DNA of 17,175 nucleotides. It comes from a virus (lineage: Duplodnaviria > Heunggongvirae > Uroviricota > Caudoviricetes). Under the pieces are notes generated by a model. The model searched no databases and was not told the origin of the DNA. It saw only the letters and a program-made list of their open reading frames with translations. Numbering within the stretch: position 1 is the stretch's first letter; every line of letters begins with the position of its first letter. Made by a program: the position numbers and the translations under genes. Where the stretch lies: IMG/VR virus record IMGVR_UViG_2872180393_000002, one strand, 5' to 3'. Shown piece after piece: positions 1 through 16,815 of this stretch.

Positions 1-300
1 TTACCGCCGTAAGTGCTCCGGCTTCCTCCACTGGTAAGTATTTTTCGCGCTCTCCCTCCGTTGTTGAGAACGGCGACGATATGCCAGCAACTCAAGGACT
101 CTTGTTCGTATGTTGCGCATATCCACGCCGTTAAGCTCAATACCGTCACGGCGCATCACCTCAGCCACCACACGCGCGTAATTTTCAGCGGTGACGCTGT
201 CCGGCTGCGTGGCCACCTGTTTGCCTGTTGCCTGACAGATTCCGGTAATACGGCGGATTACTTTCAGTAGTTCGGCGTCGGTCATGGTTATGGTTTCCAT
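1..300 (-). CDS. hypothetical 99-aa protein with basic C-terminus, last gene of the element visible in the window
   Basis: Complete ORF with ATG at 298-300 and TAA at 1-3. It lies downstream of the capsid module terminator. No family recognised by eye. Confidence 0.45.
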   Translation of the reverse strand: METITMTDAELLKVIRRITGICQATGKQVATQPDSVTAENYARVVAEVMRRDGIELNGVDMRNIRTRVLELLAYRRRSQQRRESAKNTYQWRKPEHLRR

Positions 301-463
301 AGTGATGGGGGAACAATTTCTGTAATCTGCGAAGCTGGCGATCGGTCAGACTCAAATGCCTGGCAACTTCAGTCTGAGTAGCCACTGTTCACCTCGCCCA
401 AAAATCTCTCCTCATGCGTTTTAAACATGCATCTTGCGAACAACTTTATGAAACGCGGCATAT

Positions 464-560
464 ATGTCCGGTTTGAGTGTTCAATTTTTGCGCATGTCCG
501 GTTCGCAGAAAGCGCATTTCTATATTTTTCAAATGGTTAACCTTCAGAGAAACCGGACAT
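464..560. promoter_or_regulatory. triple 10-bp repeat ATGTCCGGTT (464-473 and 494-503 direct, 551-560 inverted): candidate protein-binding sites
   Basis: Three exact copies within about 100 bp, in non-coding DNA upstream of the 99-aa gene and downstream of the capsid module. Confidence 0.35.
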
Positions 561-641
561 GGTTTCCGAAAAATTTTCATAAATAGTGAAATTCTGCGCC
601 GCTCCCGCCCCGTGGCAGGCCACCCCACCGGAAGGACCCGC

Positions 642-670
642 AAAAAAAAGCCGGATTTCTCCGGCCTTTT
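642..670 (-). terminator. rho-independent terminator ending the capsid operon
   Basis: Hairpin GCCGGA-tttc-TCCGGC at 650-665, preceded on the plus strand by A8 (642-649), which is a U8 tail on the minus strand. It sits directly after the stop of the 137-aa gene. Confidence 0.6.
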
Positions 671-671
671 C

Positions 672-1085
672 TCAGATGGTTTTCAGTATGCGATCGATTT
701 CGCCGTCATCACCCTGATATCTGCCATCGTATGCCATGCCAGGGCTTACGGCCTGCGGGCTGTGCATGTCCATAAAGTTTTCAAAGGCTGCGGTAAGCTC
801 CGGCGCAACCTTCGGGCGTTCCTGCTCTATGGTCATGTTCAGGATTTCCCGGGCATTATCGACGCTAATACATGGCACGTTTGCCATTGCACGTAACAGC
901 GGCTGATAGTCGTCAGATTCATGAAGCGCCATAATCGCATCAGTGCGCGGCTTGTCCTGCTCTTCCAGTTTGTTAAGTTGATATATAGCCTCGTAGGTTG
1001 ATAAACCTCTGTCCGCCATTGCCCGCGCTTCGGCTTTAAATTTACTCGCCAGCGGTAGCGCCATGATAGCTTCATTGATTGCCAT
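672..1085 (-). CDS. hypothetical acidic 137-aa capsid-module protein (possible scaffold or size-determination role; function unknown)
   Basis: Start MAINEAIMA at 1083-1085 with an AGGGGA Shine-Dalgarno 5 nt upstream. The longer 158-aa ORF in the track would overlap the upstream gene. Co-operonic with the E-like and D-like genes. Confidence 0.55.
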   Translation of the reverse strand: MAINEAIMALPLASKFKAEARAMADRGLSTYEAIYQLNKLEEQDKPRTDAIMALHESDDYQPLLRAMANVPCISVDNAREILNMTIEQERPKVAPELTAAFENFMDMHSPQAVSPGMAYDGRYQGDDGEIDRILKTI

Positions 1086-1411: not shown

Positions 1412-2467
1412 TTAACCAATTTTCACAGTAACAAATTTGCGGATATCTGCCGGAACCGGCTGCGGTGCGCTGTGCGTCTGCACGTACTCAATCGCCGGAT
1501 CGCCGCTCTCAATCCAGTTTTTCGGGTAGTACATGTTTTGCGTTGCGCCCGTTCTTACCGCTTCCGGATCCATAATCGCGCCATAGGCCACCAGACCTTT
1601 ATTGCTGGTGTTGCCCAGGACAAGCAAATCAGGCTCAAGGAAATATTTTTCGGTGCCGTCGCTGTCGGTGTATTTGCCGGAATAGACGATAAGGGCCAGA
1701 TCACCCAGATAGCCTTTAAAGCTCACCACTTCGCCCAGGTTTTTACACGCCAGCTCTGCGGCGGATTCTGAACCACGGGAAAGATCGTACAGCTCGCGGA
1801 ATTTTTTAAAGCTACGTAAGGTGCGCCATACGTCAGCGCCCATAATCATGACGTTGGCGGGGCAGCTGGCCTGTTCGGCGTATAGCTCGATGTCATCTGT
1901 CGGATCATGCGTCTCTTTATTCTGCTCAGACCATTTTTTTCCTGGCCCCTGATGGACAATGCAGTTTGCCGGCATATTCCAGTCGATTTCATAGCGTTCT
2001 ATGCCTTCGCCTTCAATGATGTTTTTTCCGGTCGTGACCGCATTCACTGCCAGCCATTCCACACGCGCTTTAATGGCGTTTATCTGGCGGCGCATGTTGC
2101 CAGTAATGAGGCGCATACGTCGCCAGGTGGGGTCGTTAAGCAGTGCCGGATCTTCTCCAGCCATGCGCATGATGGTTTTTGATGGATCGATTTCGTGTTT
2201 GGGTTTCATGTAGCCAGGGCGGGTAGTGCTTGTTTCGTACCCTTTATCACGCTGAACCTGGCTACCCACCACAGGCGAACAAAACGCCGACATGGTGACT
2301 TCTTCAATGTCCAGGGTATCCAGCATGACATCTTGTGTGTTGAAGGTTGCTACTTTCGGGAAAAACAGCGTGGTAAACAGCGGACTGAATTTAAATTCCG
2401 GGATATCCCCGCGATTCAGGTACGCGAAAAGCTGGTTAGTGTTAAGTGCCGTTGCTTTGTCTGCCAT
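1412..2467 (-). CDS. major capsid protein, lambda gpE family (HK97 fold), 351 aa
   Basis: Alignable by eye with lambda gpE along its length (KFKFSPLF, PGYMKPKHE, DPTDDIE, VSFKGYLGDLALIVYSG, VLGNT, YPKNW..TGDPA). Confidence 0.9.
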   Translation of the reverse strand: MADKATALNTNQLFAYLNRGDIPEFKFSPLFTTLFFPKVATFNTQDVMLDTLDIEEVTMSAFCSPVVGSQVQRDKGYETSTTRPGYMKPKHEIDPSKTIMRMAGEDPALLNDPTWRRMRLITGNMRRQINAIKARVEWLAVNAVTTGKNIIEGEGIERYEIDWNMPANCIVHQGPGKKWSEQNKETHDPTDDIELYAEQASCPANVMIMGADVWRTLRSFKKFRELYDLSRGSESAAELACKNLGEVVSFKGYLGDLALIVYSGKYTDSDGTEKYFLEPDLLVLGNTSNKGLVAYGAIMDPEAVRTGATQNMYYPKNWIESGDPAIEYVQTHSAPQPVPADIRKFVTVKIG

Positions 2468-2672
2468 TATTCACCCCATGAGTCTGATTCATGCCAAGCG
2501 CCGCACGTAAATAGGCGCGTACCTGCCAGCCTGTTGACGGCTCAACCATCGCCAGCGGATCAAGTCCTGCCGCAATGCCCGCTTTTACGTTCTGCTGGTG
2601 GCGTTCCTTGAGCGCCTCCACGATATCGGGGCTTATGTAAACTGTCACCCCGCCTTTTTTCTCTTCTGTCAT
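2442..2672 (-). CDS. hypothetical 76-aa protein, first gene of the capsid operon
   Basis: ATG at 2670-2672 with an AGAGGA RBS. It overlaps the E-like start by 26 nt. No family recognised. Confidence 0.4.
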   Translation of the reverse strand: MTEEKKGGVTVYISPDIVEALKERHQQNVKAGIAAGLDPLAMVEPSTGWQVRAYLRAALGMNQTHGVNNGRQSNGT

Positions 2673-2699
2673 AGTCAGAAATTCCTCTTCGACTTAAAA

Positions 2700-2757
2700 A
2701 ATTATAACTGGATGTACATCCAGTTATAATTATAATCATAGTTGCATTTTGTGCAAT
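2700..2757 (-). promoter_or_regulatory. sigma70-like promoter (TTGCAC-16-TATAAT, minus strand) overlapped by a perfect 32-bp palindromic operator AATTATAACTGGATGTACATCCAGTTATAATT (2700-2731)
   Basis: Perfect dyad centred at 2715/2716. The -10 lies at 2729-2734 and the -35 at 2751-2756 on the minus strand, so the palindrome covers the -10 and the predicted transcription start of the capsid operon. Confidence 0.5.
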
Positions 2758-2944
2758 AGAATTGAGTTGCATTGCAAATTATGAAATGATTTACGGCAAC
2801 AGTAGTCACCATGCTGTTAACCTCGTAAGCAAAAGCCCGATAAGCTTCCTCCTGTACTTATCGTAAGCGCCCCATCAGCGACGTCTTGTGAAAATTGTCC
2901 TGTCTGGCAACAATCGCGCCCATCTATATTGATGGACACGAACG

Positions 2945-3619
2945 ATGAATTCCCAGACAACAAAAGATATTCCCTGCTTCCGTTCTTATTTGCCTGATGC
3001 CCTGCGTTTAAGATTTGAAGATAAACTGACCATCCGGGCCATCGCTCAGCGTCTGGGTCTCAGTCATTCCACAATACATACGCTTTTTCAGCGATTTCTT
3101 GCATCCGGTATCGCATGGCCATTGCCCGATTCAGTTTCATTCGCTCAACTTGACGCCATCCTTTATGCCAACAGAAAGAAGGAATTAACAGAGCCTCAAA
3201 TCAGAGAAGGCTCATGGCGAAAAGAACGGCGAACCAGCTATAGCCGTGAATTTAAGGTCCGTCTGGCTAAGCAGGCGTTACAGCCTGGGGCTGTTGTTGC
3301 CCGGATCGCCAGAGAACACGATATCAATGATAACCTGCTGTTTAAATGGAAAAGCCAGTACGAGGACGGCTTACTGAGCGATGATGACATACAGGAATGC
3401 ATGCCTGTCCCGGTGGCACTGACTGATACGCCGGAGCCGACCAGACCAGTTACAAATCCCTTCTGGCGTAACAAGCATGATGAGCGCCCTGAGGGGGCTC
3501 CCGGAAACGTCCCACGGTGCGAGCTGCATCTTAAATCAGGTGTGGTAAAACTGTTTGACCCTCTCACTCCGGAACTGTTACGGGCGCTAATCCGCGAAAT
3601 GAAAGGGGGTATCCGATGA
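2945..3619 (+). CDS. IS66-family TnpA (helix-turn-helix accessory protein), 224 aa
   Basis: First ORF of the IS66 unit, with an IS66 orf1-like HTH region (SYSREFKVRLAKQAL..ARIAREHDINDNLLFKWKSQY). ATGA overlap with tnpB. Confidence 0.8.
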   Translation: MNSQTTKDIPCFRSYLPDALRLRFEDKLTIRAIAQRLGLSHSTIHTLFQRFLASGIAWPLPDSVSFAQLDAILYANRKKELTEPQIREGSWRKERRTSYSREFKVRLAKQALQPGAVVARIAREHDINDNLLFKWKSQYEDGLLSDDDIQECMPVPVALTDTPEPTRPVTNPFWRNKHDERPEGAPGNVPRCELHLKSGVVKLFDPLTPELLRALIREMKGGIR

Positions 3620-3963
3620 TAACGCTGCCGACCGGTACCAAAATCTGGATCATCGCTGGCATCACAGATATGCGTTGTGGCTTCAATGGCCTGGCTTCGA
3701 AGGTGCAGAACACGCTGAAAGATGACCCGTTCTCCGGGCATATCTTCGTCTTCCGGGGCCGCAGTGGCAAAATGGTGAAAATACTGTGGGCCGATCGTGA
3801 CGGGTTATGCCTGTTCGCCAAACGCCTGGAACGGGGCCGCTTCGTCTGGCCGGTGACCCGGGAAGGGAAAGTGCACCTGACGCCAGCTCAGTTATCCATG
3901 CTACTGGAGGGGATCGCGTGGCAACATCCAAAACGGACAGAACGGCCTGGCATCCGGATATAA
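3616..3963 (+). CDS. IS66-family TnpB (orf2), 115 aa
   Basis: Characteristic IS66 orf2 sequence (MRCGFNGLA..FVFRGRSGKMVKILWADRDGLCLFAKRLE). Confidence 0.9.
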   Translation: MITLPTGTKIWIIAGITDMRCGFNGLASKVQNTLKDDPFSGHIFVFRGRSGKMVKILWADRDGLCLFAKRLERGRFVWPVTREGKVHLTPAQLSMLLEGIAWQHPKRTERPGIRI

Positions 3964-3982
3964 CCCGTGATAAAACAAGGGA

Positions 3983-5584
3983 ATGAACAATGAACTCCCC
4001 GATGATATTGAGCTGCTTAAAGCCATGTTGCGTAAGCAACAGAGTCGGCTTCGACAGTATGCCTGTCAGGTCGCGGGCTATGAGCAGGAAATTGAACGGC
4101 TGAAAGCGCAACTCGACAGGTTGCGTCGTATGTTGTTCGGCCAGAGTTCAGAGAAAAAGCGTCATAAGCTTGAAAATCAGATCCGACAGGCAGAAAAACG
4201 ACTGTCGGAACTGGAAAACCGGCTGAACACAGCCAGAAATCTTCTGGAAGATGCATCGTCAGTCACAGATTCACCTGACACCAGTCCCCCGTCAGAAAAC
4301 CCGATCGCCAGTAAGCCTGAATCCCCGGGACGAAAATCTTCACGAAAACCGCTGCCGGCAGAACTTCCCCGGGAGACACATCGCCTTCTGCCTGCTGAAA
4401 CCAGTTGCCCGGCCTGTGGAGGTGTTCTGAAAGAAATGGGGGAAACAATCTCAGAGCAACTGGATATCATTAATACCGCCTTTAAAGTTATCGAAACCAT
4501 ACGTCCCAAACTGGCCTGTAGCCGGTGTGATGTCATCGTTCAGGCACCACTTCCCCCTAAACCGATCGAACGCGGTTATGCCAGTGCAGAGTTACTTGCA
4601 CGGATCCTGGTCAGCAAATATATGGAACATATCCCTTTATATCGCCAGTCAGAAATATACGCGCGACAGGGCGTGGAGCTGAGCCGTAATACCATGGTGC
4701 GCTGGGTATCAGAAATGGCAGACAAACTCCGTCCTCTGTATATAGCGCTGAATGACTATGTTCTGGAGGCAGGAAAGGTGCACGCAGATGACACTCCGGT
4801 GAAAGTACTGGCCCCGGGGAACGGAAAGACGAAAACGGGTCGTCTGTGGGTATACGTCAGGGATGATCGTAATGCGGGTTCATCCCTGCCGGCAGCCGTC
4901 TGGTTCGCGTATTCGGCAGATCGCAAAGGAGAACATCCGCAGCGCCACCTGGCAAAGTATCAGGGCGTACTGCAGGCTGATGCCTATGCAGGTTATAACG
5001 TACTGTACGAAACGGGCCGGGTGAAGGAAGCCGGGTGCCAGGCCCACGCCCGCCGAAAAATCCATGACGAGGATGTGCGCCGTCCGACAGAAATGACTCA
5101 GGAAGCGCTCAGACGGATAGCAGAGTTATACGACATAGAAGCGGAGATACGTGGCAGTCCGGCAGAGGAACGGCTTGCAGTCAGAAAAGCCAGAAGCGTC
5201 CAGTTGATGCAGTCGTTGTACGACTGGATACAGTTGCAGAGGAAAACGCTGTCGAAACATGCGGAGATGGCGAAGGCGTTCGACTATATCCTGAATCACT
5301 GGAATGCGCTGAACGAGTTCTGTCGTGACGGCTGGGTGGAAATAGACAACAACATCGGTGAAAACGCGTTACGATCGGTGGCGGTTGGAAGAAAAAATTA
5401 TCTCTTTTTCGGCTCAGACAAGGGAGGAGAAAGTGCGGCGATCATCTACAGTCTGCAGGTCACCTGCAAACAGAACGAAGTGGAGCCGGAGGACTGGTTG
5501 CGCGAAGTGATCGAGAAGCTCAATGACTGGCCGTCGAACCAAGTGCATGAACTGCTGCCCTGGAACTTCTCGTCTGTAAAATAA
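3983..5584 (+). CDS. IS66-family transposase TnpC (DDE), 533 aa
   Basis: N-terminal leucine zipper, CxxC..CxxC zinc finger, and a DDE core typical of IS66 TnpC. Confidence 0.9.
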
Positions 5585-5641
5585 TCCTTACGCTACGTAC
5601 TTCTCGGGGCGCTTACTACTTATCGGGCTTTTTTTGGGTAC

Positions 5642-6054: not shown

Positions 6055-6118
6055 TGAGGTAGCCTGAGTTTAACGGACACTCCTTCCTGAAATAGAATGG
6101 CATCAGAAGGAGCTAATA

Positions 6119-6421
6119 ATGAGCAGAAAAACCCAACGTTACTCTAAAGAGTTCAAAGCCGAAGCTGTCAGAACGGTTCTTGAAAATCAACTTTCGATCA
6201 GTGAAGGCGCTTCCCGATTATCCCTTCCTGAAGGCACTTTAGGACAATGGGTTACCGCCGCCAGAAAAGGGCTCGGTACTCCTGGTTCCCGCACGGTGGC
6301 TGAACTGGAATCTGAAATTCTGCAACTGCGTAAGGCGTTAAATGAAGCTCGCCTTGAGCGAGATATATTAAAAAAAGCAACAGCGTATTTTGCACAGGAG
6401 TCGCTGAAAAATACGCGTTAA
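6119..6421 (+). CDS. IS3-family OrfA (HTH), IS600-like
   Basis: 100-aa ORF with an IS3-type HTH and leucine zipper, identical in all three copies. Confidence 0.9.
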   Translation: MSRKTQRYSKEFKAEAVRTVLENQLSISEGASRLSLPEGTLGQWVTAARKGLGTPGSRTVAELESEILQLRKALNEARLERDILKKATAYFAQESLKNTR

Positions 6422-6456
6422 TCGAACAATGGCGACAACAATTTCCCATTGAAGCG

Positions 6457-7275
6457 ATGTGTCAGGTATTTGGTGTATCCAGGAGCGGTTATTACAACTG
6501 GGTACAGCATGAACCCTCAGACAGAAAACAAAGTGATGAGCGGCTAAAACTGGAGATTAAGGTGGCACATATCCGCACTCGCGAAACATATGGAACCCGG
6601 CGGCTCCAGACGGAGCTGGCAGAGAATGGCATCATCGTTGGTCGTGACCGACTGGCACGTCTTCGTAAGGAGCTAAGGCTACGCTGTAAGCAGAAACGCA
6701 AGTTCAGAGCGACTACGAACCCGAACCACAATCTGCCAGTTGCGCCAAATCTGCTGAACCAGACGTTCGCTCCTACAGCACCAAATCAGGTCTGGGTGGC
6801 GGACCTGACGTATGTTGCCACACAGGAGGGATGGTTGTACCTAGCTGGCATCAAAGATGTTTATACGTGCGAAATTGTCGGCTACGCCATGGGAGAGCGC
6901 ATGACAAAAGAGCTGACAGGTAAAGCCCTGTTTATGGCGCTCAGGAGCCAGCGCCCACCTGCCGGGCTAATCCACCACTCTGATCGAGGTTCACAGTACT
7001 GCGCATACGATTACCGGGTCATACAGGAGCAGTTTGGTCTGAAAACATCAATGTCGCGTAAAGGTAACTGTTACGACAACGCTCCGATGGAAAGCTTCTG
7101 GGGAACGCTGAAAAATGAGAGCCTGAGCCACTATCGTTTTAATAACCGGGATGAAGACATCTCAGTAATACGGGAATACATTGAGATTTTCTACAATCGT
7201 CAGCGTCGTCACTCTCGTCTGGGGAATATCTCCCCGGCAGCCTTCAGGGAAAAATATCATCATATGGCTGCTTAA
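6457..7275 (+). CDS. IS3-family OrfB (DDE integrase-type transposase catalytic domain); expressed as an OrfAB fusion by -1 frameshifting
   Basis: DDE / rve-type motifs (WVADLTY..., HHSDRGSQY..., NAPMESFWGTLKNE). The frame is open upstream of the first ATG back to the slippery site. Confidence 0.9.
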   Translation: MCQVFGVSRSGYYNWVQHEPSDRKQSDERLKLEIKVAHIRTRETYGTRRLQTELAENGIIVGRDRLARLRKELRLRCKQKRKFRATTNPNHNLPVAPNLLNQTFAPTAPNQVWVADLTYVATQEGWLYLAGIKDVYTCEIVGYAMGERMTKELTGKALFMALRSQRPPAGLIHHSDRGSQYCAYDYRVIQEQFGLKTSMSRKGNCYDNAPMESFWGTLKNESLSHYRFNNRDEDISVIREYIEIFYNRQRRHSRLGNISPAAFREKYHHMAA

Positions 7276-7318
7276 AAAAAGAACAAATGGTAGTGTCCGC
7301 TATTGCCAGTACACCTCA

Positions 7319-7349
7319 ACCGTCCGTAAGCTGCTATCTGTGCTGTCAT
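7319..7349 (-). pseudogene. ssb: ssb N-terminal fragment (first 10 codons, MTAQIAAYGR), separated from the rest by IS600-like copy A
   Basis: ATG at 7347-7349 with a GAGGTGG RBS. Removing the IS and one copy of the ACC duplication restores one continuous SSB frame. Confidence 0.7.
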
Positions 7350-7901: not shown

Positions 7902-8246
7902 TTATAAAAACGCGTCGCACTCGTCTGTTGTTATTGCGTTAGTCTGCGTTACCCCCTTAACTTTCCGCGTAATATATTCATGTCCGTAAACTTTTGCGGC
8001 AGGCTTCATAGCCTTGCCAAAGTCATTTACGTTTAGCGGTTTGCTCCTGCCTGCGTATGCCATAAACGCCAGATAGACGCGGTAAAGGCTGTTCCTGGTC
8101 GTGTACTTCACTGAATCACCACCGCCACCCATCATCAGGCCGCGCGCTTCCTCCAGAAAATTCAGGAACTGGCAAAACTCAATAACCGGATCCGTCTGTT
8201 GCTTTATTGCCAGTGCTTCATCACCGTCACGCTGTTCCAGTAGTAA
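7902..8246 (-). pseudogene. primase-helicase C-terminal fragment (about 115 codons, candidate origin-binding domain), cut off by IS600-like copy B
   Basis: Removing the IS and one TAA duplication joins this frame (LLLEQRDGDEALAIKQ...TTDECDAFL) in phase to the ORF at 9511-10923. Confidence 0.7.
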
Positions 8247-8289
8247 TGAGGTGTACTGGCAATAGCGGACACTACCATTTGTTCTTTTT

Positions 8290-9108
8290 TTAAGCAGCCA
8301 TCTGATGATATTTTTCCCTGAAGGCTGCCGGGGAGATATTCCCCAGACGAGAGTGACGACGCTGACGATTGTAGAAAATCTCAATGTATTCCCGTATTAC
8401 TGAGATGGCTTCATCCCGGTTATTAAAACGATAGTGGCTCAGGCTCTCATTTTTCAGCGTTCCCCAGAAGCTTTCCATCGGAGCGTTGTCGTAACAGTTA
8501 CCTTTACGCGACATTGATGTTTTCAGACCAAACTGCTCCTGTATGACCCGGTAATCGTATGCGCAGTACTGTGAACCTCGATCAGAGTGGTGGATTAGCC
8601 CGGCAGGTGGGCGCTGGCTCCTGAGCGCCATAAACAGGGCTTTACCTGTCAGCTCTTTTGTCATGCGCTCTCCCATGGCGTAGCCGACAATTTCGCACGT
8701 ATAAACATCTTTGATGCCAGCTAGGTACAACCATCCCTCCTGTGTGGCAACATACGTCAGGTCCGCCACCCAGACCTGATTTGGTGCTGTAGGAGCGAAC
8801 GTCTGGTTCAGCAGATTTGGCGCAACTGGCAGATTGTGGTTCGGGTTCGTAGTCGCTCTGAACTTGCGTTTCTGCTTACAGCGTAGCCTTAGCTCCTTAC
8901 GAAGACGTGCCAGTCGGTCACGACCAACGATGATGCCATTCTCTGCCAGCTCCGTCTGGAGCCGCCGGGTTCCATATGTTTCGCGAGTGCGGATATGTGC
9001 CACCTTAATCTCCAGTTTTAGCCGCTCATCACTTTGTTTTCTGTCTGAGGGTTCATGCTGTACCCGGTTGTAATAACCGCTCCTGGATACACCAAATACC
9101 TGACACAT
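8290..9108 (-). CDS. IS3-family OrfB (DDE), copy B
   Basis: Matches copy A except for point differences (W to R near the N-terminus, D to A, H to Q near the C-terminus). Confidence 0.9.
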   Translation of the reverse strand: MCQVFGVSRSGYYNRVQHEPSDRKQSDERLKLEIKVAHIRTRETYGTRRLQTELAENGIIVGRDRLARLRKELRLRCKQKRKFRATTNPNHNLPVAPNLLNQTFAPTAPNQVWVADLTYVATQEGWLYLAGIKDVYTCEIVGYAMGERMTKELTGKALFMALRSQRPPAGLIHHSDRGSQYCAYDYRVIQEQFGLKTSMSRKGNCYDNAPMESFWGTLKNESLSHYRFNNRDEAISVIREYIEIFYNRQRRHSRLGNISPAAFREKYHQMAA

Positions 9109-9143
9109 CGCTTCAATGGGAAATTGTTGTCGCCATTGTTCGA

Positions 9144-9446
9144 TTAACGCGTATTTTTCAGCGACTCCTGTGCAAAATACGCTGTTGCTTTTTTTAATAT
9201 ATCTCGCTCAAGGCGAGCTTCATTTAACGCCTTACGCAGTTGCAGAATTTCAGATTCCAGTTCAGCCACCGTGCGGGAACCAGGAGTACCGAGCCCTTTT
9301 CTGGCGGCGGTAACCCATTGTCCTAAAGTGCCTTCAGGAAGGGATAATCGGGAAGCGCCTTCACTGATCGAAAGTTGATTTTCAAGAACCGTTCTGACAG
9401 CTTCGGCTTTGAACTCTTTAGAGTAACGTTGGGTTTTTCTGCTCAT
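9144..9446 (-). CDS. IS3-family OrfA, copy B
   Basis: Identical to OrfA of copy A. Confidence 0.9.
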   Translation of the reverse strand: MSRKTQRYSKEFKAEAVRTVLENQLSISEGASRLSLPEGTLGQWVTAARKGLGTPGSRTVAELESEILQLRKALNEARLERDILKKATAYFAQESLKNTR

Positions 9447-9507
9447 TATTAGCTCCTTCTGATGCCATTCTATTTCAGGAAGGAGTGTCCGTTAAACTCA
9501 GGCTACC

Positions 9508-10923
9508 TCATAAAGCCCGTGCCTTCTCAGGGTCGGTAAAGTTCGCCAGCAATCGGCGGATAATAACGGGGATTTCAGCCGCAATCTTTTCCGGTAGCTC
9601 CCTGTCTTTTTCGGCCTCACTGACGATATTGTCGAAACGGAAAATCACGCGACGACGTGCCACACCTCCGGCCCGTTCGGTGAATATCATCGGGTTGTTG
9701 TCGGTCGCCAGCACCACCGCCCTGATTACCGCCGTGAAACGCTTTTCATATTTCGGGTTAATTTCCACGGGGTCGCCGCCCGTGATTTTCTTGATGCCCG
9801 TTCCTTCGCCTGTATATTTCGGCTGGTCAGCCAGGACGATAAGACGACTCCCGACAACCTGCGCACGTCCACCAGCATCATCAAGCGATGTCATTTCAGC
9901 GCTTACCGTGTTCTGTTTCCCTGCCAGAAGGCTGGCTATGTGTGTGAATGTACTTTTACCGCTCCCGCCGTCTCCGGTGGCCTCAATAAACATCTGCCAG
10001 TCGTACCGGTTCGCCATAATCATGTAAAGCGCGGCACATATGCGCATCATCTTGCGCGGGTCTTTTCCGGCTGCGTGATCAAGCCATTTATGAAAGTTTG
10101 GCGCGTTGTCGCGGATATTCTCCCCTGGTGCTGGTGGCGTGTACTCAATGCCGTTGTGCGTGGTGATCCAGTTCTCCGGCGTGTGCGGGGAAAATTCCCC
10201 CGTTTTCAGGTTAAGCACACCATTAGTGAACGGTAGCAAATCACTGGACGGCTCGCCCATCGGGTCAGCAATAACTTTTAACGCTTCAACGGCGTTATTA
10301 ATTGCCCGCTTGCTGAATGTGGCCCCGTGTTCTGAATAAACCGCCACCATTTCGCGGCTCAGTTCCATTGTGCTGACCGGACACCATATCCCGCCGCGCC
10401 ATACGTGAACGATTTCACTTTCCGGATGCACACAAACGCCATCAAATCGACCAGCAAGCATCTGTGCGCGCTCACTGTCTGCCATCTGCGAAAGTTGCGC
10501 CTTTTGCTTTACCGGAAGCTCAATGACCAGACCATCAGAAAGATTCTGGCGTTCACGGGCCAGATATTCGCGCCAGTTCTGCACCTCCTGGCCGTGCATA
10601 CCCTCAAGATAAAAATTTGCATCCTGTACACCTGCCGCCGCCAGCTTCTGACCAATCGCCTTGATCATTACAGGCTCAAGATGTCCGGCTCTGTATATGC
10701 GTGCTGATTTTCTGCCATCCGGCACAATTTGCAGATTATCCAGTTCGGATAGCTGCTGCTCTCCAAGCCACACAGGAGGCTCATTATCTCCGGCTGTACG
10801 CGCGTCATGTTCCTGCCACTGTTTCGCGTGTGCCCAGGCATCACTACCCGCAAAGATAATTACCTCTGTGTCTTTGTGTTTTATTCCGCGTGGCTGTTTT
10901 TTTACGTTCGGTGCCAGTTTCAT
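9508..10923 (-). pseudogene. replication protein: N-terminal primase-associated region, D5_N-like region and SF3 (P4-alpha / D5-type) helicase with Walker A GDGGSGKST; truncated, with its stop codon supplied by the IS end
   Basis: Walker A and downstream SF3 motifs. The stop TGA is the complement of the terminal TCA of the IS at 9508-9510. Confidence 0.8.
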
Positions 10924-11458: not shown

Positions 11459-11495
11459 AACCCCGTTACTTTATTCGTACCTCTTATAATGGGGT

Positions 11496-11691
11496 GTTAG
11501 CCAGCCAGACCCGGCATGATTACTGCCCCCAGTCGTCCATGATCCGGGGGGTGATGTCACCGGGTCTGGTGGGGCGCTGGTAACCGCTAATAGGGGTCAG
11601 GTCAGGCACTTTTGCCGGGACCGTCTGTAACGTGGATGCCGGTACCTGCTCCCCGTGGTTATCTGGTTAACCCATATACAAGGGAGACAGA
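11496..11691 (+). ncRNA. candidate IS110-type guide (bridge) RNA in the non-coding left end
   Basis: About 200 nt of structured non-coding DNA 5' of the recombinase gene, with a 10-bp stem CCAGACCCGG (11505-11514) / CCGGGTCTGG (11560-11569) and internal repeats. Based on position and structure only. Confidence 0.3.
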
Positions 11692-12915
11692 ATGACCGAA
11701 TCCAGCGATTACGAATCCGTCCAGGTCTTTATCGGCGTTGATGTCGGTAAAGATACGCATCACGCTGTTGCCATTAATCGTTCAGGTAAACGCCTGTTCG
11801 ATAAAGCATTACCCAACGACGAAAACAAACTCAGGTCGCTAATATCTGACCTGAAACAACATGGTCAGATACTTCTGGTTGTTGATCAGCCAGCTACCAT
11901 CGGTGCGTTACCTGTCGCCGTTGCCCGCTCAGAAGGAGTCCTTGTCGGATACCTCCCTGGACTGGCCATGCGCCGCATAGCCGACTTACACGCCGGTGAA
12001 GCTAAAACTGATGCTCGTGACGCTGCCATCATTGCCGAAGCTGCCCGTACCCTGCCTCACGCGCTACGCACGCTGAAACTGGCTGACGAGCAAATCGCCG
12101 AACTCTCCATGCTCTGCGGCTTCGATGATGATCTTGCCGCACAGACAACGCAGGCCAGCAACCGTATCCGCGGCCTTCTGACCCAGATACATCCGGCACT
12201 GGAGCGCGTTCTCGGTCCGAGACTTGAGCACCCGGCGGTACTCGATCTTCTCCAGCGATATCCCTCACCAGAAAAACTCGCTTCGCTGGGTGAGAAGAAG
12301 CTGGCAGCCCAGCTCTGCAAACTTGCGCCTCGTCTGGGTAAACGCCTTGCAGCAGACATAGCTCAGGCACTGGCCGAACAAACCGTCGTCGTTCCCGGCA
12401 CGAATGCCGCTGCCGTAGTACTGCCACGTCTGGCACTCCAGCTCATCACGCTGCGTAAGCAAAGAGACGAGGTGGCGCTTGAGGTAGAACAGCGAGTTCT
12501 TGCTCACCCTCTTTACCCGGTCCTGACCAGTATGCCCGGAGTCGGTGTCAGGACCGCAGCCAGACTCCTCACCGAGGTCGCCTGCCGCGCCTTCGCCTCT
12601 GCCGCACATCTCGCTGCTTATGCTGGCCTTGCGCCGGTAACTCGGCGATCCGGCTCGTCAATACGCGGTGAGCATCCCTCGCGACGGGGTAATAAAGCTC
12701 TCAAACGGGCGTTGTTCCTGTCGGCCTTCGCCGCGCTCAGGGATCCGCTCTCCAGGGCTTACTACACCCGCAAAATGAGTCAGGGAAAACGACACAATCA
12801 GGCGCTTATCGCCCTGGCGAATACGGGCCGCGAATACAGCAACACAACCGGACGGGCAATGGTTACGCGCTTCGCGTTCAGTCCAGGCGGTGACGTGGAT
12901 GATTTGGGACTCTGA
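11692..12915 (+). CDS. IS110-family recombinase/transposase (N-terminal DEDD RuvC-like domain, C-terminal Tnp domain), 407 aa
   Basis: N-terminal IGVDVGKDTHH motif, helix-hairpin-helix MPGVGVRTAARLL, and C-terminal RRSGSSIRGEH..ALKRALFLSAF serine motif. AGGGAG RBS. Confidence 0.9.
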   Translation: MTESSDYESVQVFIGVDVGKDTHHAVAINRSGKRLFDKALPNDENKLRSLISDLKQHGQILLVVDQPATIGALPVAVARSEGVLVGYLPGLAMRRIADLHAGEAKTDARDAAIIAEAARTLPHALRTLKLADEQIAELSMLCGFDDDLAAQTTQASNRIRGLLTQIHPALERVLGPRLEHPAVLDLLQRYPSPEKLASLGEKKLAAQLCKLAPRLGKRLAADIAQALAEQTVVVPGTNAAAVVLPRLALQLITLRKQRDEVALEVEQRVLAHPLYPVLTSMPGVGVRTAARLLTEVACRAFASAAHLAAYAGLAPVTRRSGSSIRGEHPSRRGNKALKRALFLSAFAALRDPLSRAYYTRKMSQGKRHNQALIALANTGREYSNTTGRAMVTRFAFSPGGDVDDLGL

Positions 12916-14784: not shown

Positions 14785-15552
14785 CTACACGGCTCGGATA
14801 CCCCTTTTACCACTGGCGAGGGTTACGCCCGTCGCCGCAGCCTCGACAAATTCGCCCCACCAGCGCATCAGCACGATGCGTTTTTCTATGTAGTTGCTCC
14901 GGTTGTATGCCCGTCTAACTTCGTTGGTGTCGACGTGGGCAAGTGCCGCCTCTATTACGTCCGGCTCGAATCCTTCCTCGTTCGCTGCTGTGCTGAATAT
15001 GGCGCGTAATCCATGAGACACCAGCACGCCAGCGAATCCCATACGCTGCAATGCTGCGTTAGCGGTCTGGCTGTTCATCGGCTGCTGTGGGTCTTTCAGA
15101 CTTGGGAAAACGTAATTGCGGTGGTGGCTGATTGGTTTCATGGCCTCCAGCACCGCCATAGCCTGACCGGAAAGCGGGATAACGTGATCCCTGCGCATCT
15201 TCATGCGTCCTGCAGGTATCGTCCATTGCTTCGCGTCCAGGTTGATTTCATCCCACCGCGTTGATGACGCTTCGGCGGGACGGGTTACGGTCAGTAACTG
15301 CCATTCAATCAGTAATCTGGTCTGCCGTTCTGTTGCCGATACTGATAAAGCCTGCATAAGCTCCGGCAGCTGTTCGGGGCGGATTGTTGGCATATGTTTT
15401 TTTACAGGTGAGGGAAACGCCTTACGCACATTCATAGCCGGATTGGCATCAATCAGCCCACTGTTGGCGGCGTAATCCATTACCTCATTAACGCGCTGTA
15501 AAACCCGCTTGAGTGTTTCCAGGTTGCCGCGCTCCTTGATGGGTGTAAGCAC
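14785..15552 (-). pseudogene. int: tyrosine integrase (P4-type), C-terminal catalytic part; gene interrupted by IS600-like copy C
   Basis: Catalytic-domain motifs HGLRAIFST (H-x-x-R) and RAYNRSNY (tyrosine nucleophile). The 5' end abuts the IS at 15552/15553. Confidence 0.85.
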
Positions 15553-15616
15553 TGAGGTAGCCTGAGTTTAACGGACACTCCTTCCTGAAATAGAATGGCA
15601 TCAGAAGGAGCTAATA

Positions 15617-15919
15617 ATGAGCAGAAAAACCCAACGTTACTCTAAAGAGTTCAAAGCCGAAGCTGTCAGAACGGTTCTTGAAAATCAACTTTCGATCAGT
15701 GAAGGCGCTTCCCGATTATCCCTTCCTGAAGGCACTTTAGGACAATGGGTTACCGCCGCCAGAAAAGGGCTCGGTACTCCTGGTTCCCGCACGGTGGCTG
15801 AACTGGAATCTGAAATTCTGCAACTGCGTAAGGCGTTAAATGAAGCTCGCCTTGAGCGAGATATATTAAAAAAAGCAACAGCGTATTTTGCACAGGAGTC
15901 GCTGAAAAATACGCGTTAA
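15617..15919 (+). CDS. IS3-family OrfA, copy C
   Basis: Identical to OrfA of copies A and B. Confidence 0.9.
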   Translation: MSRKTQRYSKEFKAEAVRTVLENQLSISEGASRLSLPEGTLGQWVTAARKGLGTPGSRTVAELESEILQLRKALNEARLERDILKKATAYFAQESLKNTR

Positions 15920-15954
15920 TCGAACAATGGCGACAACAATTTCCCATTGAAGCG

Positions 15955-16815
15955 ATGTGTCAGGTATTTGGTGTATCCAGGAGCGGTTATTACAACTGGG
16001 TACAGCATGAACCCTCAGACAGAAAACAAAGTGATGAGCGGCTAAAACTGGAGATTAAGGTGGCACATATCCGCACTCGCGAAACATATGGAACCCGGCG
16101 GCTCCAGACGGAGCTGGCAGAGAATGGCATCATCGTTGGTCGTGACCGACTGGCACGTCTTCGTAAGGAGCTAAGGCTACGCTGTAAGCAGAAACGCAAG
16201 TTCAGAGCGACTACGAACCCGAACCACAATCTGCCAGTTGCGCCAAATCTGCTGAACCAGACGTTCGCTCCTACAGCACCAAATCAGGTCTGGGTGGCGG
16301 ACCTGACGTATGTTGCCACACAGGAGGGATGGTTGTACCTAGCTGGCATCAAAGATGTTTATACGTGCGAAATTGTCGGCTACGCCATGGGAGAGCGCAT
16401 GACAAAAGAGCTGACAGGTAAAGCCCTGTTTATGGCGCTCAGGAGCCAGCGCCCACCTGCCGGGCTAATCCACCACTCTGATCGAGGTTCACAGTACTGC
16501 GCATACGATTACCGGGTCATACAGGAGCAGTTTGGTCTGAAAACATCAATGTCGCGTAAAGGTAACTGTTACGACAACGCTCCGATGGAAAGCTTCTGGG
16601 GAACGCTGAAAAATGAGAGCCTGAGCCACTATCGTTTTAATAACCGGGATGAAGCCATCTCAGTAATACGGGAATACATTGAGATTTTCTACAATCGTCA
16701 GCGTCGTCACTCTCGTCTGGGGAATATCTCCCGGCAGCCTTCAGGGAAAAATATCATCAGATGGCTGCTTAAAAAAAGAACAAATGGTAGTGTCCGCTAT
16801 TGCCAGTACACCTCA
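15955..16815 (+). pseudogene. IS3-family OrfB, copy C, frameshifted about 14 codons before the normal stop by a 1-bp deletion; the frame reads out of the IS to 17175
   Basis: CTCCCGGCAG here versus CTCCCCGGCAG in copies A and B. The DDE core lies upstream of the lesion and is intact. Confidence 0.8.

What the first reader, a model, noticed from the sequence alone, without database searches (positions are those of the whole stretch)
464..560. Triple ATGTCCGGTT repeat (two direct, one inverted) in the non-coding DNA after the capsid module
Three exact 10-bp copies spaced 30 and 57 bp apart look like an ordered set of protein-binding sites. The position, just after the capsid genes and before a small basic protein gene, would suit a packaging-recognition region (comparable to small-terminase binding sites next to a cos site) or an operator for the 99-aa product.
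Basis: inference. Interest (0 to 1): 0.45.

Follow-up and report, generated by a model that had tools for sequence, protein, structure and literature searches.

The report
Satellite cos site: terminase-binding repeats
The three repeats are the docking sites for a helper phage's small terminase (R3, R2 and R1 of a lambda-type cos packaging signal) that a phage-parasitic island copied whole from its helper; the kind of site is ordinary, but this specificity class has not been described.

Summary
ATGTCCGGTT occurs exactly at 464-473(+), 494-503(+) and 551-560(-); no such triple appeared in 1000 shuffles of the window.

Read on the minus strand, window 639-314 is a complete lambda-type cos:
- cosQ GGGTCCT (639-633)
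- cosN with the 12-nt end GGGCGGGAGCGG (610-599)
- a spacer block identical to lambda (586-569)
- R3 (560-551, +51..60 from the nick; lambda R3 is +50..65)
- an IHF consensus site (539-527)
- R2 (503-494, inverted to R3) and R1 (473-464)
- the first 24 codons of a Nu1-family small-terminase gene (385-314)

This 327-bp cassette is 98.5% identical to the cos of lambdoid E. coli prophages. It lies in an IS-riddled EcCICFT073-like PICI, after that island's capsid genes.

Across 50 distinct cos regions the repeats are 98-100% conserved and the spacers 55-79%. In 111 of 111 scorable loci, cosN starts exactly 50 bp before R3. In 10 of 10 lineages, residue 20 of the terminase recognition helix (R versus D/N) changes together with base 3 of every repeat (G versus T); three of these were predicted before being checked.

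The same repeats form the cosB of the published EcCICFT073 "cos2", which was reported as unidentifiable. This is a new member of a known kind. The operator reading is rejected.

The parts
642..666 (-). Hairpin GGCCGGAGAAATCCGGC followed by T8. Probable intrinsic terminator closing the island's capsid operon, immediately upstream of cosQ. Homology to the phage cos begins just after it.
   Evidence: Sequence. The consensus scan reports the hairpin at 650-665. Homology with prophage L002 starts at cosQ.
633..639 (-). cosQ, GGGTCCT, identical to lambda cosQ. It starts 29 bp before the nick (30 bp in lambda).
   Evidence: Identity 0.98 over 50 distinct cos regions. The 7-bp cosQ is described as highly conserved in lambda-like phages in PMC4669245.
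597..612 (-). cosN. Inferred 12-nt 5' cohesive end GGGCGGGAGCGG (610-599) plus 2 flanking bp on each side. Inferred top-strand nick between 611 and 610.
   Evidence: It aligns with lambda bp 1-12, GGGCGGCGACCT. The record of phage cdtI ends at the base that aligns with window 611 and restarts with GGGCGGGAGCGT. The same cosN variant is found in 8 of 111 IMG/VR loci, always 50 bp before R3.
569..586 (-). Spacer block CTATTTATGAAAATTTTT between cosN and cosB. Its first 17 bases are identical to lambda bp 24-40.
   Evidence: Identity 1.00 in the footprint.
551..560 (-). R3, the 'inverted' copy: ATGTCCGGTT read on the minus strand, conserved block CCATGTCCGGTTTC at 562-549. It lies at +51..+60 from the nick, the position of lambda R3 (+50..65). 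Proposed primary small-terminase binding site, which positions the large terminase on cosN.
   Evidence: Identity 1.00 over 50 distinct sequences. The distance from cosN to R3 is fixed at 50 bp in 111 of 111 loci. Lambda R3 position from PMC9026076.
527..539 (-). I1, candidate IHF site: TAACCATTTGAAA against the consensus YAANNNNTTGATW (12 of 13), followed by an A/T-rich tract. It lies between R3 and R2.
   Evidence: Sequence. The equivalent position in relatives has perfect consensus matches: TAACCAATTGATT, TAACATATTGATT, TAACCTGTTGATT. Mean identity 0.87.
494..503 (+). R2, inverted relative to R3 and 57 bp from it (start to start). Proposed partner site for the second wing-helix domain of a terminase dimer across the IHF bend.
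   Evidence: Identity 0.99. Present with the same 57-bp offset in all 10 lineages examined.
464..473 (+). R1, an accessory site 30 bp from R2 and in the same orientation as R2. Lambda, 21 and Monarch have R1 in the orientation of R3.
   Evidence: Identity 0.98. Found in the E. coli, Enterobacter and Klebsiella lineages, always in the R2 orientation. Absent from the Salmonella, Citrobacter, L211, L221 and L222 cos regions.
314..385 (-). Remnant of the helper-type small-terminase (Nu1 family) gene. GTG start at 385, preceded by GAGG, then 24 codons (VATQTEVARHLSLTDRQLRRLQKL) that are 100% identical to the prophage TerS. Homology then breaks, and the reading frame runs on as a 66-aa junk ORF ending at 185.
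   Evidence: tblastn of TerS against the window matches residues 1-24 at 385-314 and nothing else. Alignment breakpoint. Annotated as an incomplete pseudogene in the O121 relative.
1..285 (-). Context, not part of cos: small basic protein (94 aa from the ATG at 285; 99 aa from the ATG at 300), phrog_1561, function unknown. Homologue of the 93-aa gene that follows cos2 in EcCICFT073.
   Evidence: No PDB or Pfam match. No tblastn match in the phage collection.
672..2467 (-). Context: the island's capsid module. Lambda-E-like major capsid protein (2467-1412), lambda-D-like decoration protein (1387-1097), and a 137-aa protein (1085-672) resembling the scaffold end of the phage S49 protease.
   Evidence: Pfam PF03864 and PF02924. 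PHROGs 29, 49 and 1999/53. 39% identity to residues 416-484 of the CFT073 prophage protease. Same gene order as c1499/c1500 of EcCICFT073.

Best explanation
The three repeats are the R elements of cosB, the small-terminase (TerS) binding sites of a lambda-type cohesive-end packaging signal. The whole signal, read on the minus strand, runs from cosQ (639-633) to the start of a truncated TerS gene (385-314).

This 327-bp cassette belongs to a phage-inducible chromosomal island (PICI) of the EcCICFT073 family, and is essentially the cos of a lambdoid helper prophage.

Proposed mechanism (inferred from lambda):
1. Late in helper infection, the helper's Nu1-family TerS docks its N-terminal helix-turn-helix domains on R3 (560-551) and on the inverted R2 (503-494). 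An IHF bend at 539-527 brings these two sites face to face. R1 (473-464) adds affinity.
2. The bound TerS places the large terminase on cosN, 50 bp from R3, where it nicks to give the 12-nt end GGGCGGGAGCGG.
3. Packaging runs towards lower window coordinates.
4. The next cos on a concatemer (cosQ plus cosN) terminates packaging.

Because the island carries the helper's own cosB, it needs no specificity-switching protein. It has no rpp gene and no terminase of its own.

Shown here: the anatomy, the homology, the conservation, the fixed geometry, and the co-variation of the sites with the TerS recognition helix. Inferred: binding, bending, nicking, and whether this IS-damaged copy is still mobilised.
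For: 1. Homology: window 314-640 is 98.5% identical to the cos and TerS-start region of lambdoid prophages that encode TerS, TerL, W, portal, protease and D in lambda order. It is about 80% identical to phage PhiR12_1.

2. Alignment with lambda puts cosQ, cosN and the CTATTTATGAAAATTTT block in register, with the repeats at the places of R3, R2 and R1 (lambda positions from PMC9026076). The record of phage cdtI ends at the base aligning with window 611.

3. Footprint over 50 distinct cos regions: R3 1.00, R2 0.99, R1 0.98 and cosQ 0.98, against 0.55-0.79 for the spacers.

The span is 97 bp in 119 of 120. cosN starts 50 bp before R3 in 111 of 111 scorable loci. In 83 loci a full-length TerS of this type follows directly.

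5. Co-variation: TerS with helix ..RQLRRLQK has ATGTCCGGTT at every site (5 lineages: E. coli, Salmonella, Citrobacter, Enterobacter and one metagenome contig, L222). TerS with ..LRDLQK or ..LRNLQK has A(T/C)TTCCGGTT at every site (5 lineages). Three of these cases were predicted before they were looked up. A TerS with the same C-terminal domain but a different N-terminal domain has GGTTGTTGT repeats at the same places instead.

6. The TerS is Nu1 family (PF07471; 44% identical to lambda Nu1 residues 86-180). Its modelled N-terminus is a small beta-helix-helix-loop-helix domain. Its best fold matches are MerR/excisionase-type winged helices, viral TerS DNA-binding domains and RppC.

7. The homologous region of EcCICFT073 (cos2, same three repeats) was shown experimentally to act as a cos site in plasmid and island transfer (PMC6092414).
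Against: - No binding, nicking or transfer experiment exists for this TerS class or for this island. R-site function is inferred from lambda and 21.
- R1 is in the opposite orientation to lambda's R1 and is missing in several lineages, so its role is uncertain.
- The IHF site is one base off the consensus in the window, and two relatives (L218, L223) lack a match at that spot.
- This copy of the island is interrupted by IS elements in its primase and integrase genes, so its cos may no longer serve transfer.
- The exact nick positions rest on a database record end and on homology, not on sequenced virion ends.
Confidence: 0.88

Rival explanations
1. The repeats are operators for a transcription regulator, for example the adjacent 94/99-aa basic protein, controlling a promoter in the 300-670 gap.
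For: The repeats lie in an intergenic gap upstream of a small basic ORF. Two direct copies plus one inverted copy could in principle bind a repressor.
Against: The same repeats with the same spacing lie upstream of TerS in at least 83 phage loci that have no homologue of the ORF, and tblastn of the ORF against 50,697 phage records finds nothing. In EcCICFT073 the repeat block is inverted relative to the homologous 93-aa gene. No sigma-70-like promoter is found at 250-720. The repeat sequence follows the TerS helix, not the ORF.
Confidence: 0.02
2. The repeats are a PICI-specific cosB recognised by an Rpp-TerS hetero-complex, as at cos1 of EcCICFT073, and not by the helper terminase alone.
For: The island is of the EcCICFT073 family, in which Rpp redirects packaging to an island-specific cosB (PMC6739421; PMC9026076).
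Against: The window has no rpp: tblastn with RppA gives nothing better than E = 0.58, and the 99-aa ORF has no match to solved structures, RppC included. The repeats are identical to those of phage cos sites followed by the cognate TerS. Published cos1-type sites lack I1, R2 and R1. In EcCICFT073 only cosB of cos1, not of cos2, responded to RppA.
Confidence: 0.03
3. In this genome the site is a relic. It is a true cosB by descent, but the island can no longer excise or replicate. The cos either does nothing or merely acts as a chromosomal decoy that the helper terminase cuts unproductively.
For: Compared with the near-identical but intact elements L209 and L115, the window copy carries an IS66-family element (2864-5616), three IS3-family copies (6055-7319; 8247-9510 splitting the D5-type primase; 15553-16815 truncating the integrase) and an IS110-family element. 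PMC4669245 notes that cutting at a lone chromosomal cos gives stalled, tailless particles.
Against: The cos cassette itself is intact: all subsites are present and it is 98.5% identical to prophage cos. Nothing is known about the rest of the genome or about possible complementation. This rival concerns present activity, not what the repeats are.
Confidence: 0.4
4. The repeats are replication-origin iterons, or arm-type sites for the island's integrase/excisionase.
For: PICIs have iterated origins and lie near their att sites. In the O121 relative the cos region is within about 1.5 kb of the island end.
Against: In PICIs the origin lies 3' of the replication gene (PMC6092414), which in this window is about 7-10 kb away. 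The repeats occur in phages with unrelated replication and integration modules, always 50 bp from cosN. They co-vary with TerS.
Confidence: 0.01

Closest known systems
cosB of bacteriophage lambda (R3-I1-R2-R1, bound by gpNu1)
   Same: - Same order of cosQ, cosN, spacer, R3, IHF site, R2, R1 and TerS start.
- Same R3 position (+51..60 here, +50..65 in lambda).
- R2 is inverted to R3 across an IHF site.
- cosQ is identical, and 17 bp of the cosN-R3 spacer are identical.
- The TerS C-terminal domain is homologous (44% identity).
   Different: - R sequence is CATGTCCGGTT rather than CGTTTCC(T/G)TTCT.
- The TerS N-terminal domain shows no detectable sequence similarity to that of lambda Nu1.
- R1 is in the R2 orientation and 30 bp from R2; in lambda it is in the R3 orientation, about 52 bp from R2.
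- The cosN right half differs (GGGCGGGAGCGG against GGGCGGCGACCT).
cosB of phage 21 and of CFT073 'phage 4' (TerS-21 specificity)
   Same: Tripartite cosB with an IHF site. Its R core, CATGTCGG, resembles CATGTCCGG.
   Different: - One base fewer in the core.
- R1 is in the R3 orientation.
- The TerS helix is DPRTIERWQ, not TDRQLRRLQ.
- TerS-21 is only 37% identical to this TerS, and only over the C-terminal part.
cos2 of the E. coli PICI EcCICFT073 (Fillol-Salom et al. 2018, 2019)
   Same: - The same three 10-mers with the same spacing.
- An IHF-like site, cosN 50 bp from R3, and cosQ.
- It lies between the island's capsid module and the homologue of the 94-aa gene.
- It was shown experimentally to work as a cos site.
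   Different: - In EcCICFT073 it is inverted relative to the flanking genes.
- It coexists there with cos1 and rppA, and it has the lambda cosN GGGCGGCGACCT.
- The window has a single cos, co-oriented with the genes, plus a 24-codon TerS remnant, and neither cos1 nor rppA.
- The papers state that no phage cosB could be identified in either EcCICFT073 cos.
cos1/Rpp system of Gram-negative PICIs
   Same: Same island family, with the same cosQ and cosN logic and dependence on helper TerS and TerL.
   Different: cos1 has only a proposed single R3-PICI of unrelated sequence, with no I1, R2 or R1, and needs the island protein Rpp. The window has the helper's own cosB and no rpp.
Direct cos mimicry by other satellites (P4 with P2 cos; SaPIbov5 with the helper cos)
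   Same: The satellite carries the helper's own packaging site and relies on unmodified helper terminase (SaPI case cited in PMC6092414; the P4 case is from general knowledge).
   Different: Unrelated phage lineages and terminases (P2 Ogr/P4; HNH-dependent staphylococcal cos phages), with no R3-I1-R2-R1 architecture.
cosB of N15 (single R3, remote rR2) and of Monarch
   Same: Lambda-like cosQ and cosN, with R3 at about +48..60.
   Different: N15 lacks I1, R2 and R1. Monarch has the lambda arrangement with R1 in the R3 orientation. The R sequences and recognition helices are different.

Membership tests
lambda-type cos site (cosQ-cosN-cosB) | cosN: a 12-nt GGGCGG... cohesive-end sequence at which phage genome ends map | tested here: met
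   GGGCGGGAGCGG (610-599) aligns with lambda bp 1-12. The cdtI record ends at the base aligning with window 611. Physical ends were not determined for this element.
lambda-type cos site (cosQ-cosN-cosB) | cosQ GGGTCCT about 30 bp upstream of the nick | tested here: met
   GGGTCCT at 639-633, starting 29 bp before the nick. Identity 0.98.
lambda-type cos site (cosQ-cosN-cosB) | R3 at a fixed distance (about +50) from the nick | tested here: met
   R3 lies at +51..60. cosN starts exactly 50 bp before R3 in 111 of 111 loci. Lambda R3 is at +50..65.
lambda-type cos site (cosQ-cosN-cosB) | R2 inverted to R3, with an IHF site (I1) between them | tested here: met
   R2 is inverted and 57 bp from R3 in all 10 lineages. 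An IHF consensus lies at the same offset: 12 of 13 in the window, perfect in 4 relatives, and no match in 2.
lambda-type cos site (cosQ-cosN-cosB) | R1 in the orientation of R3 (complex cosB of lambda, 21, phi80, Gifsy-1, Monarch) | tested here: not met
   R1 has the orientation of R2 in the window and in the E. coli, Enterobacter and Klebsiella relatives. It is absent in the others. This feature is non-essential in lambda genetics.
lambda-type cos site (cosQ-cosN-cosB) | Cognate Nu1-family TerS gene immediately downstream, followed by a gpA-type TerL | tested here: met
   Met in the phage copies: PF07471 TerS followed by GpA_ATPase/GpA_nuclease TerL. In the window only codons 1-24 of TerS remain, as expected for a satellite.
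lambda-type cos site (cosQ-cosN-cosB) | R sequences match the specificity of the TerS recognition helix | tested here: met
   In 10 of 10 lineages, residue 20 R goes with G at site position 3, and D/N goes with T, in every copy. Three of these cases were predicted in advance. A TerS with a swapped N-terminal domain has unrelated repeats.
lambda-type cos site (cosQ-cosN-cosB) | TerS N-terminal domain is a winged helix-turn-helix | tested here: inconclusive
lambda-type cos site (cosQ-cosN-cosB) | TerS binds the R sites; terminase nicks cosN; the site confers packaging | not testable with these tools
   Only indirect support: the EcCICFT073 cos2 region with the same repeats conferred phage-mediated transfer (PMC6092414).
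Rpp-dependent PICI cos (cos1 type) | rpp gene adjacent to cos | tested here: not met
   tblastn with RppA against the window gives a best E of 0.58. The neighbouring ORF has no hit to solved structures, RppC included.
Rpp-dependent PICI cos (cos1 type) | cosB unlike that of any helper: a single R3-PICI, with no I1, R2 or R1 | tested here: not met
   The window cosB is 98.5% identical to a prophage cosB and has R3, I1, R2 and R1.
EcCICFT073-like PICI (host element) | Integrase, primase/replication module, E-like capsid and D-like decoration genes, cos near the end of the island, and no terminase, portal or tail genes | tested here: met
   Integrase fragment, Ash, D5-type primase (split by an IS), SSB, MCP, decoration and scaffold-like genes. 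No TerL, portal or protease. Same order as the EcCICFT073 end. Several genes are interrupted by IS elements.

The most novel reading that the evidence does not exclude
ATGTCCGGTT-type cosB defines a fourth packaging specificity among lambda-like phages, after lambda, 21 and N15. EcCICFT073-family islands would exploit it by plain mimicry.

On this reading, the unexplained 'cos2' of EcCICFT073 is a complete helper-type cos for phages with the TQTEVARHL...RQLRRLQK terminase. Such islands would then have two packaging routes: Rpp-dependent redirection through cos1 for lambda/phi80/21-type helpers, and Rpp-independent mimicry through cos2 for this second helper class.

The window represents a rare lineage (3 of 5426 complete E. 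coli genomes) that replaced cos1 and rpp with the helper cassette and so depends on mimicry alone. A single Arg20-guanine contact would set the sub-specificity (ATG versus ATT sites).
Probability: 0.45. Interest if true: 0.55.

Novelty: new member of a known kind. Interest (0 to 1): 0.38.

Why it matters
This result turns an anonymous repeat into a defined, testable packaging signal and names its probable protein partner.

1. It adds a bioinformatically well-supported specificity class to the lambda-type TerS-cosB recognition system. Only three classes (lambda, 21, N15) are documented in the papers read here. It also offers a simple, checkable recognition rule: helix residue 20 against base 3 of each site.

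2. It suggests an explanation for the second cos site of the model island EcCICFT073, whose cosB was reported as unidentifiable. It predicts a second class of helper phages for these islands.

3. It shows that, within one PICI family, packaging can be secured either by a specificity-switching protein (Rpp) or by copying the helper's whole cos. This bears on predicting which prophages mobilise which islands, and the defence or virulence genes they carry.

For this particular window the practical weight is small, because the island is heavily IS-damaged.

Tried and rejected
- **Is the 99-aa ORF an Rpp or a known DNA-binding protein?** No match to solved structures at E <= 1 and no Pfam family. 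The only hit is PHROG 1561, of unknown function. There is no homologue in 50,697 phage records. The genome-contig scan found a single relative, in Shigella flexneri, directly downstream of a gene whose in-frame translation (my reading, not run against a family library) looks like a large-terminase end, with no cos-like sequence nearby. It is therefore not a useful lead for the repeats.
- **Sequence search of the helper TerS against solved structures,** looking for the lambda Nu1 DNA-binding domain: nothing relevant. I had to fall back on a model and fold searches, and these are only suggestive.
- **Literal search of papers for ATGTCCGGTT:** only unrelated primer or construct sequences.
- **Promoter scan of 250-720:** no sigma-70-like site.
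- **A second cos in the window (cos1-like):** none.
- **Phage 21 specificity:** considered, because the R cores resemble each other. Rejected because the TerS N-termini and the R sequences differ.
- **Not attempted:** finding the cognate prophage in the genome the window comes from (not available), and checking whether CFT073 itself carries a TerS of this class.

Full report
**1. Observation**

ATGTCCGGTT occurs exactly at 464-473 (+), 494-503 (+) and 551-560 (-). With one mismatch allowed, the window has only one further match, at 10681 inside a primase gene. In 1000 dinucleotide-preserving shuffles of the 17-kb window, no 10-mer occurred three times on either strand within 100 bp. The real sequence has exactly one such cluster.

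**2. What surrounds it**

All relevant genes are on the minus strand.

- Upstream are a lambda-E-like major capsid gene (2467-1412; PF03864), a lambda-D-like decoration gene (1387-1097; PF02924), and a 137-aa gene (1085-672). The 137-aa gene resembles the C-terminal scaffold part of phage S49 head proteases.
- A hairpin followed by T8 (666-642) closes this module.
- Downstream of the repeats is a GTG-initiated ORF at 385. Its first 24 codons are 100% identical to a prophage small terminase, after which homology stops.
- Then comes a basic 94/99-aa ORF (285/300 to 1) of unknown function.

The rest of the window holds an SSB gene, a D5-type primase, an Ash-family gene and an integrase fragment, interspersed with IS66-, IS3- and IS110-family elements. 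Comparison with near-identical but uninterrupted elements (L209, L115) shows that these IS copies split the primase and truncate the integrase.

The gene set and order match the right end of the published island EcCICFT073: c1499 capsid, c1500 decoration, a 137-aa gene, cos, and a 93-aa gene. The element is therefore an EcCICFT073-like phage-inducible chromosomal island, decayed in this genome.

**3. The region is a complete lambda-type cos**

Window 314-640 is 98.5% identical to a stretch of lambdoid E. coli prophages. In those prophages the stretch lies directly upstream of, and runs into, a TerS gene followed by TerL, W, portal, S49 protease and D. It is about 80% identical to the equivalent stretch of phage PhiR12_1.

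Aligned with the left end of lambda, the minus strand reads as follows:

| Subsite | Window coordinates | Note |
|---|---|---|
| cosQ GGGTCCT | 639-633 | identical to lambda |
| cosN GGGCGGGAGCGG | 610-599 | lambda has GGGCGGCGACCT |
| CTATTTATGAAAATTTT block | within 586-569 | identical to lambda bp 24-40 |
| First repeat, R3 | 560-551 | +51..+60 from the nick |
| IHF consensus TAACCATTTGAAA | 539-527 | 12 of 13 to YAANNNNTTGATW |
| Second repeat, R2 | 503-494 | inverted to R3 |
| Third repeat, R1 | 473-464 | same orientation as R2 |

Lambda R3 lies at +50..65 (PMC9026076). The record of phage cdtI ends at the base that aligns with window 611 and restarts with GGGCGGGAGCGT, which fixes the probable nick. 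The repeats thus occupy the positions of R3, R2 and R1 of cosB, with I1 between R3 and R2.

**4. Conservation and geometry**

Over 50 distinct cos regions from phages and satellites, identity to the window base is as follows:

| Segment | Identity |
|---|---|
| R3 | 1.00 |
| R2 | 0.99 |
| R1 | 0.98 |
| cosQ | 0.98 |
| Spacer block shared with lambda | 1.00 |
| Other spacers | 0.55-0.79 |
| Leader after R1 | 0.47 |

The repeats stay the same even where cosN is of the lambda type rather than the window type.

- The pattern spans 97 bp in 119 of them.
- cosN starts exactly 50 bp before R3 in all 111 loci with enough sequence.
- 83 loci have a full-length TerS of this type directly downstream, and about 11 have a truncated one.
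- About 25 are island-type loci with the satellite capsid genes, 9 of them with rppA.

**5. The protein partner and co-variation**

The prophage TerS (169 aa) belongs to the Nu1 family only through its C-terminal part (PF07471, residues 71-150; 44% identity to lambda Nu1 residues 86-180). Its N-terminal part has no detectable sequence similarity to lambda Nu1.

The stronger evidence is co-variation in homologues from other genera:

| TerS helix | Lineages | Sequence at R3, R2 (and R1 where present) |
|---|---|---|
| ..LT(D/E)RQLRRLQK | E. coli, Salmonella, Citrobacter, Enterobacter, one metagenome contig (L222) | ATGTCCGGTT |
| ..RWLRDLQK, ..RRLRDLQK, ..RQ(L/F)RNLQK | E. coli, Klebsiella, Salmonella (2 lineages), one Logan contig (L221) | ACTTCCGGTT or ATTTCCGGTT |

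I predicted the site type for three further proteins before fetching their loci, and all three came out as predicted. The tally is 10 of 10 lineages, and all copies change together within each cos.

A natural domain swap gives the control. A TerS with the same C-terminal domain but a different N-terminal domain (LLNKSDMASSIGISVQAFDKW) has GGTTGTTGT repeats at the R3, R2 and R1 places and no CCGG repeats.

My hand alignment with lambda places the co-varying residue 20 at lambda N21, inside the recognition helix (residues 17-24). An Arg-guanine contact is a plausible reading, but it is an inference.

**6. Mechanism proposed**

By analogy with lambda, a TerS dimer docks on R3 and on the inverted R2 across an IHF bend at I1, with R1 adding affinity. 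TerS then holds TerL on cosN 50 bp away. Nicking gives a 12-nt end, and packaging proceeds towards the TerS remnant, that is, towards low window coordinates.

The island has no TerS beyond codon 24 and no TerL, portal, protease or rpp. It must therefore rely on an unmodified helper terminase. The homology block ends precisely at cosQ on one side and at codon 24 of TerS on the other, as expected for a cassette captured from a helper by recombination.

**7. Relation to what is known**

Lambda-like phages with a complex cosB (lambda, phi80, 21, Gifsy-1, Monarch) have R3-I1-R2-R1 with R2 opposed to R3 and R1. Three packaging specificities (lambda, 21, N15) are documented.

The present cosB has the same plan but differs in three ways:
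- the R sequence is its own;
- the TerS N-terminal domain is its own;
- R1 has the orientation of R2, or is absent.

Isolated phages with this TerS in the collection are only PhiR12_1 to PhiR12_5.

Known Gram-negative PICIs are described as keeping cosQ and cosN but lacking the phage cosB, and as using Rpp to retarget TerS. The CFT073 sequence shows that EcCICFT073 'cos2' is an inverted, complete copy of the cos type described here, with the three 10-mers at L089 3163, 3193 and 3252, followed by the reverse complements of cosN and cosQ. The papers report that cos2 works as a cos site but is not needed for transfer by lambda or phi80 and does not respond to RppA. That fits a site meant for another TerS class.

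The window's arrangement has a single, co-oriented helper cos with a TerS remnant and no cos1 or rppA. It is rare, occurring in 3 of 5426 complete E. coli genomes.

**8. Rivals**

- An operator for the 94-aa protein is excluded by distribution, orientation and co-variation.
- An Rpp-type cosB is excluded by the absence of rpp and by identity to the phage cosB.
- Origin iterons or att arm sites do not fit the fixed link to cosN and TerS.
- One caveat remains about present activity. Because the island is IS-damaged, this copy of cos may be a relic or a decoy.

**9. Verdict**

The repeats are the R3, R2 and R1 terminase-binding sites of a lambda-type cos that an EcCICFT073-like island took from a lambdoid helper.

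- It is a new member of a known kind.
- Confidence in the identity is high.
- Biochemical function, and the activity of this particular copy, are inferred.
- Interest is moderate. It comes mainly from the undescribed specificity class, the clean recognition rule, and the explanation offered for EcCICFT073 cos2.

Noticed in passing
L089 (E. coli CFT073 NC_004431.1 1385000-1434000), positions 2529-3345: The model island EcCICFT073 has cos1 (+ strand: cosQ at 2529, cosN at 2559) followed by rppA (2660-3094). After that comes an inverted, complete cos: ATGTCCGGTT at 3163 and 3193, AACCGGACAT at 3252, then the reverse complements of cosN and cosQ. This appears to be the published 'cos2', whose cosB was reported as unidentifiable. 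It is a full R3-I1-R2-R1 cosB of the class found in the window.
   Followed up: partly
window 2864-5616, 6055-7319, 8247-9510, 11465-12811, 15553-16815: The island is riddled with insertion sequences compared with the near-identical elements L209 and L115. These are an IS66-family element, three copies of an IS3-family element (100-aa plus 272-aa ORFs) and an IS110-family element. They split the D5-type primase (7902-8384 and 9508-10923) and truncate the integrase (14785-15552). This IS load suggests a Shigella-like host genome.
   Followed up: partly
window 1-300 (-); L088 3001-3291 (Shigella flexneri CP182556.1): The 94/99-aa basic protein (phrog_1561, unknown function) follows cos in these islands. 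Its only relative found in the species-representative genome set (66% identity) lies directly downstream of a coding region whose in-frame translation, by my reading (not run against a family library), looks like the end of a large-terminase gene. No cos-like sequence is nearby. This hints at a role in packaging or head completion.
   Followed up: no
L192 (IMG/VR locus, 4614 bp), 1705-4614: In one contig the satellite-type capsid and scaffold-like genes are followed directly by this cos and then by a full-length TerS and the start of TerL. This could be an island-phage recombinant, a possible intermediate for how the window-type cassette arose, or an assembly chimera.
   Followed up: no
window 672-1085 (-): The 137-aa protein between the decoration gene and cos is 39% identical to residues 416-484 of the prophage S49 head protease (the Nu3-like scaffold end). 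The island therefore encodes capsid, decoration and scaffold-like proteins but no portal or protease, which may bear on capsid-size redirection.
   Followed up: partly
L210 (E. coli CP028741.1) upstream of TerS at 1001; L007 (phi458) and L005/L006 (cdtI): Lambdoid TerS proteins are modular. The same C-terminal (TerL-binding) domain is joined to at least two unrelated N-terminal DNA-binding domains, each with its own repeat set at the R3, R2 and R1 positions (GGTTGTTGT for the LLNKSDMASSIG type). Phages with a DUF1441-type TerS (cdtI, phi458) share the window's cosQ-to-cosN segment and nearly the same cosN (GGGCGGGAGCGT) but have an entirely different cosB.
   Followed up: partly
window 418-455: A 38-bp stretch of the leader between R1 and the TerS start (AAAGTTGTTCGCAAGATGCATGTTTAAAAC...) is about 95% identical to the same position in phages with an unrelated (DUF1441) TerS, namely phi458 and mEp460-like phages. 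It is absent from PhiR12-type phages. This is a small mosaic module of unknown role.
   Followed up: no
L091 and similar IMG/VR loci: Some islands of this family have the inverted cos2-type site but no detectable rppA. There, 455 bp lie between the scaffold-like gene and the repeats, against 666 bp in EcCICFT073. The cos region of these islands therefore exists in at least three layouts.
   Followed up: no
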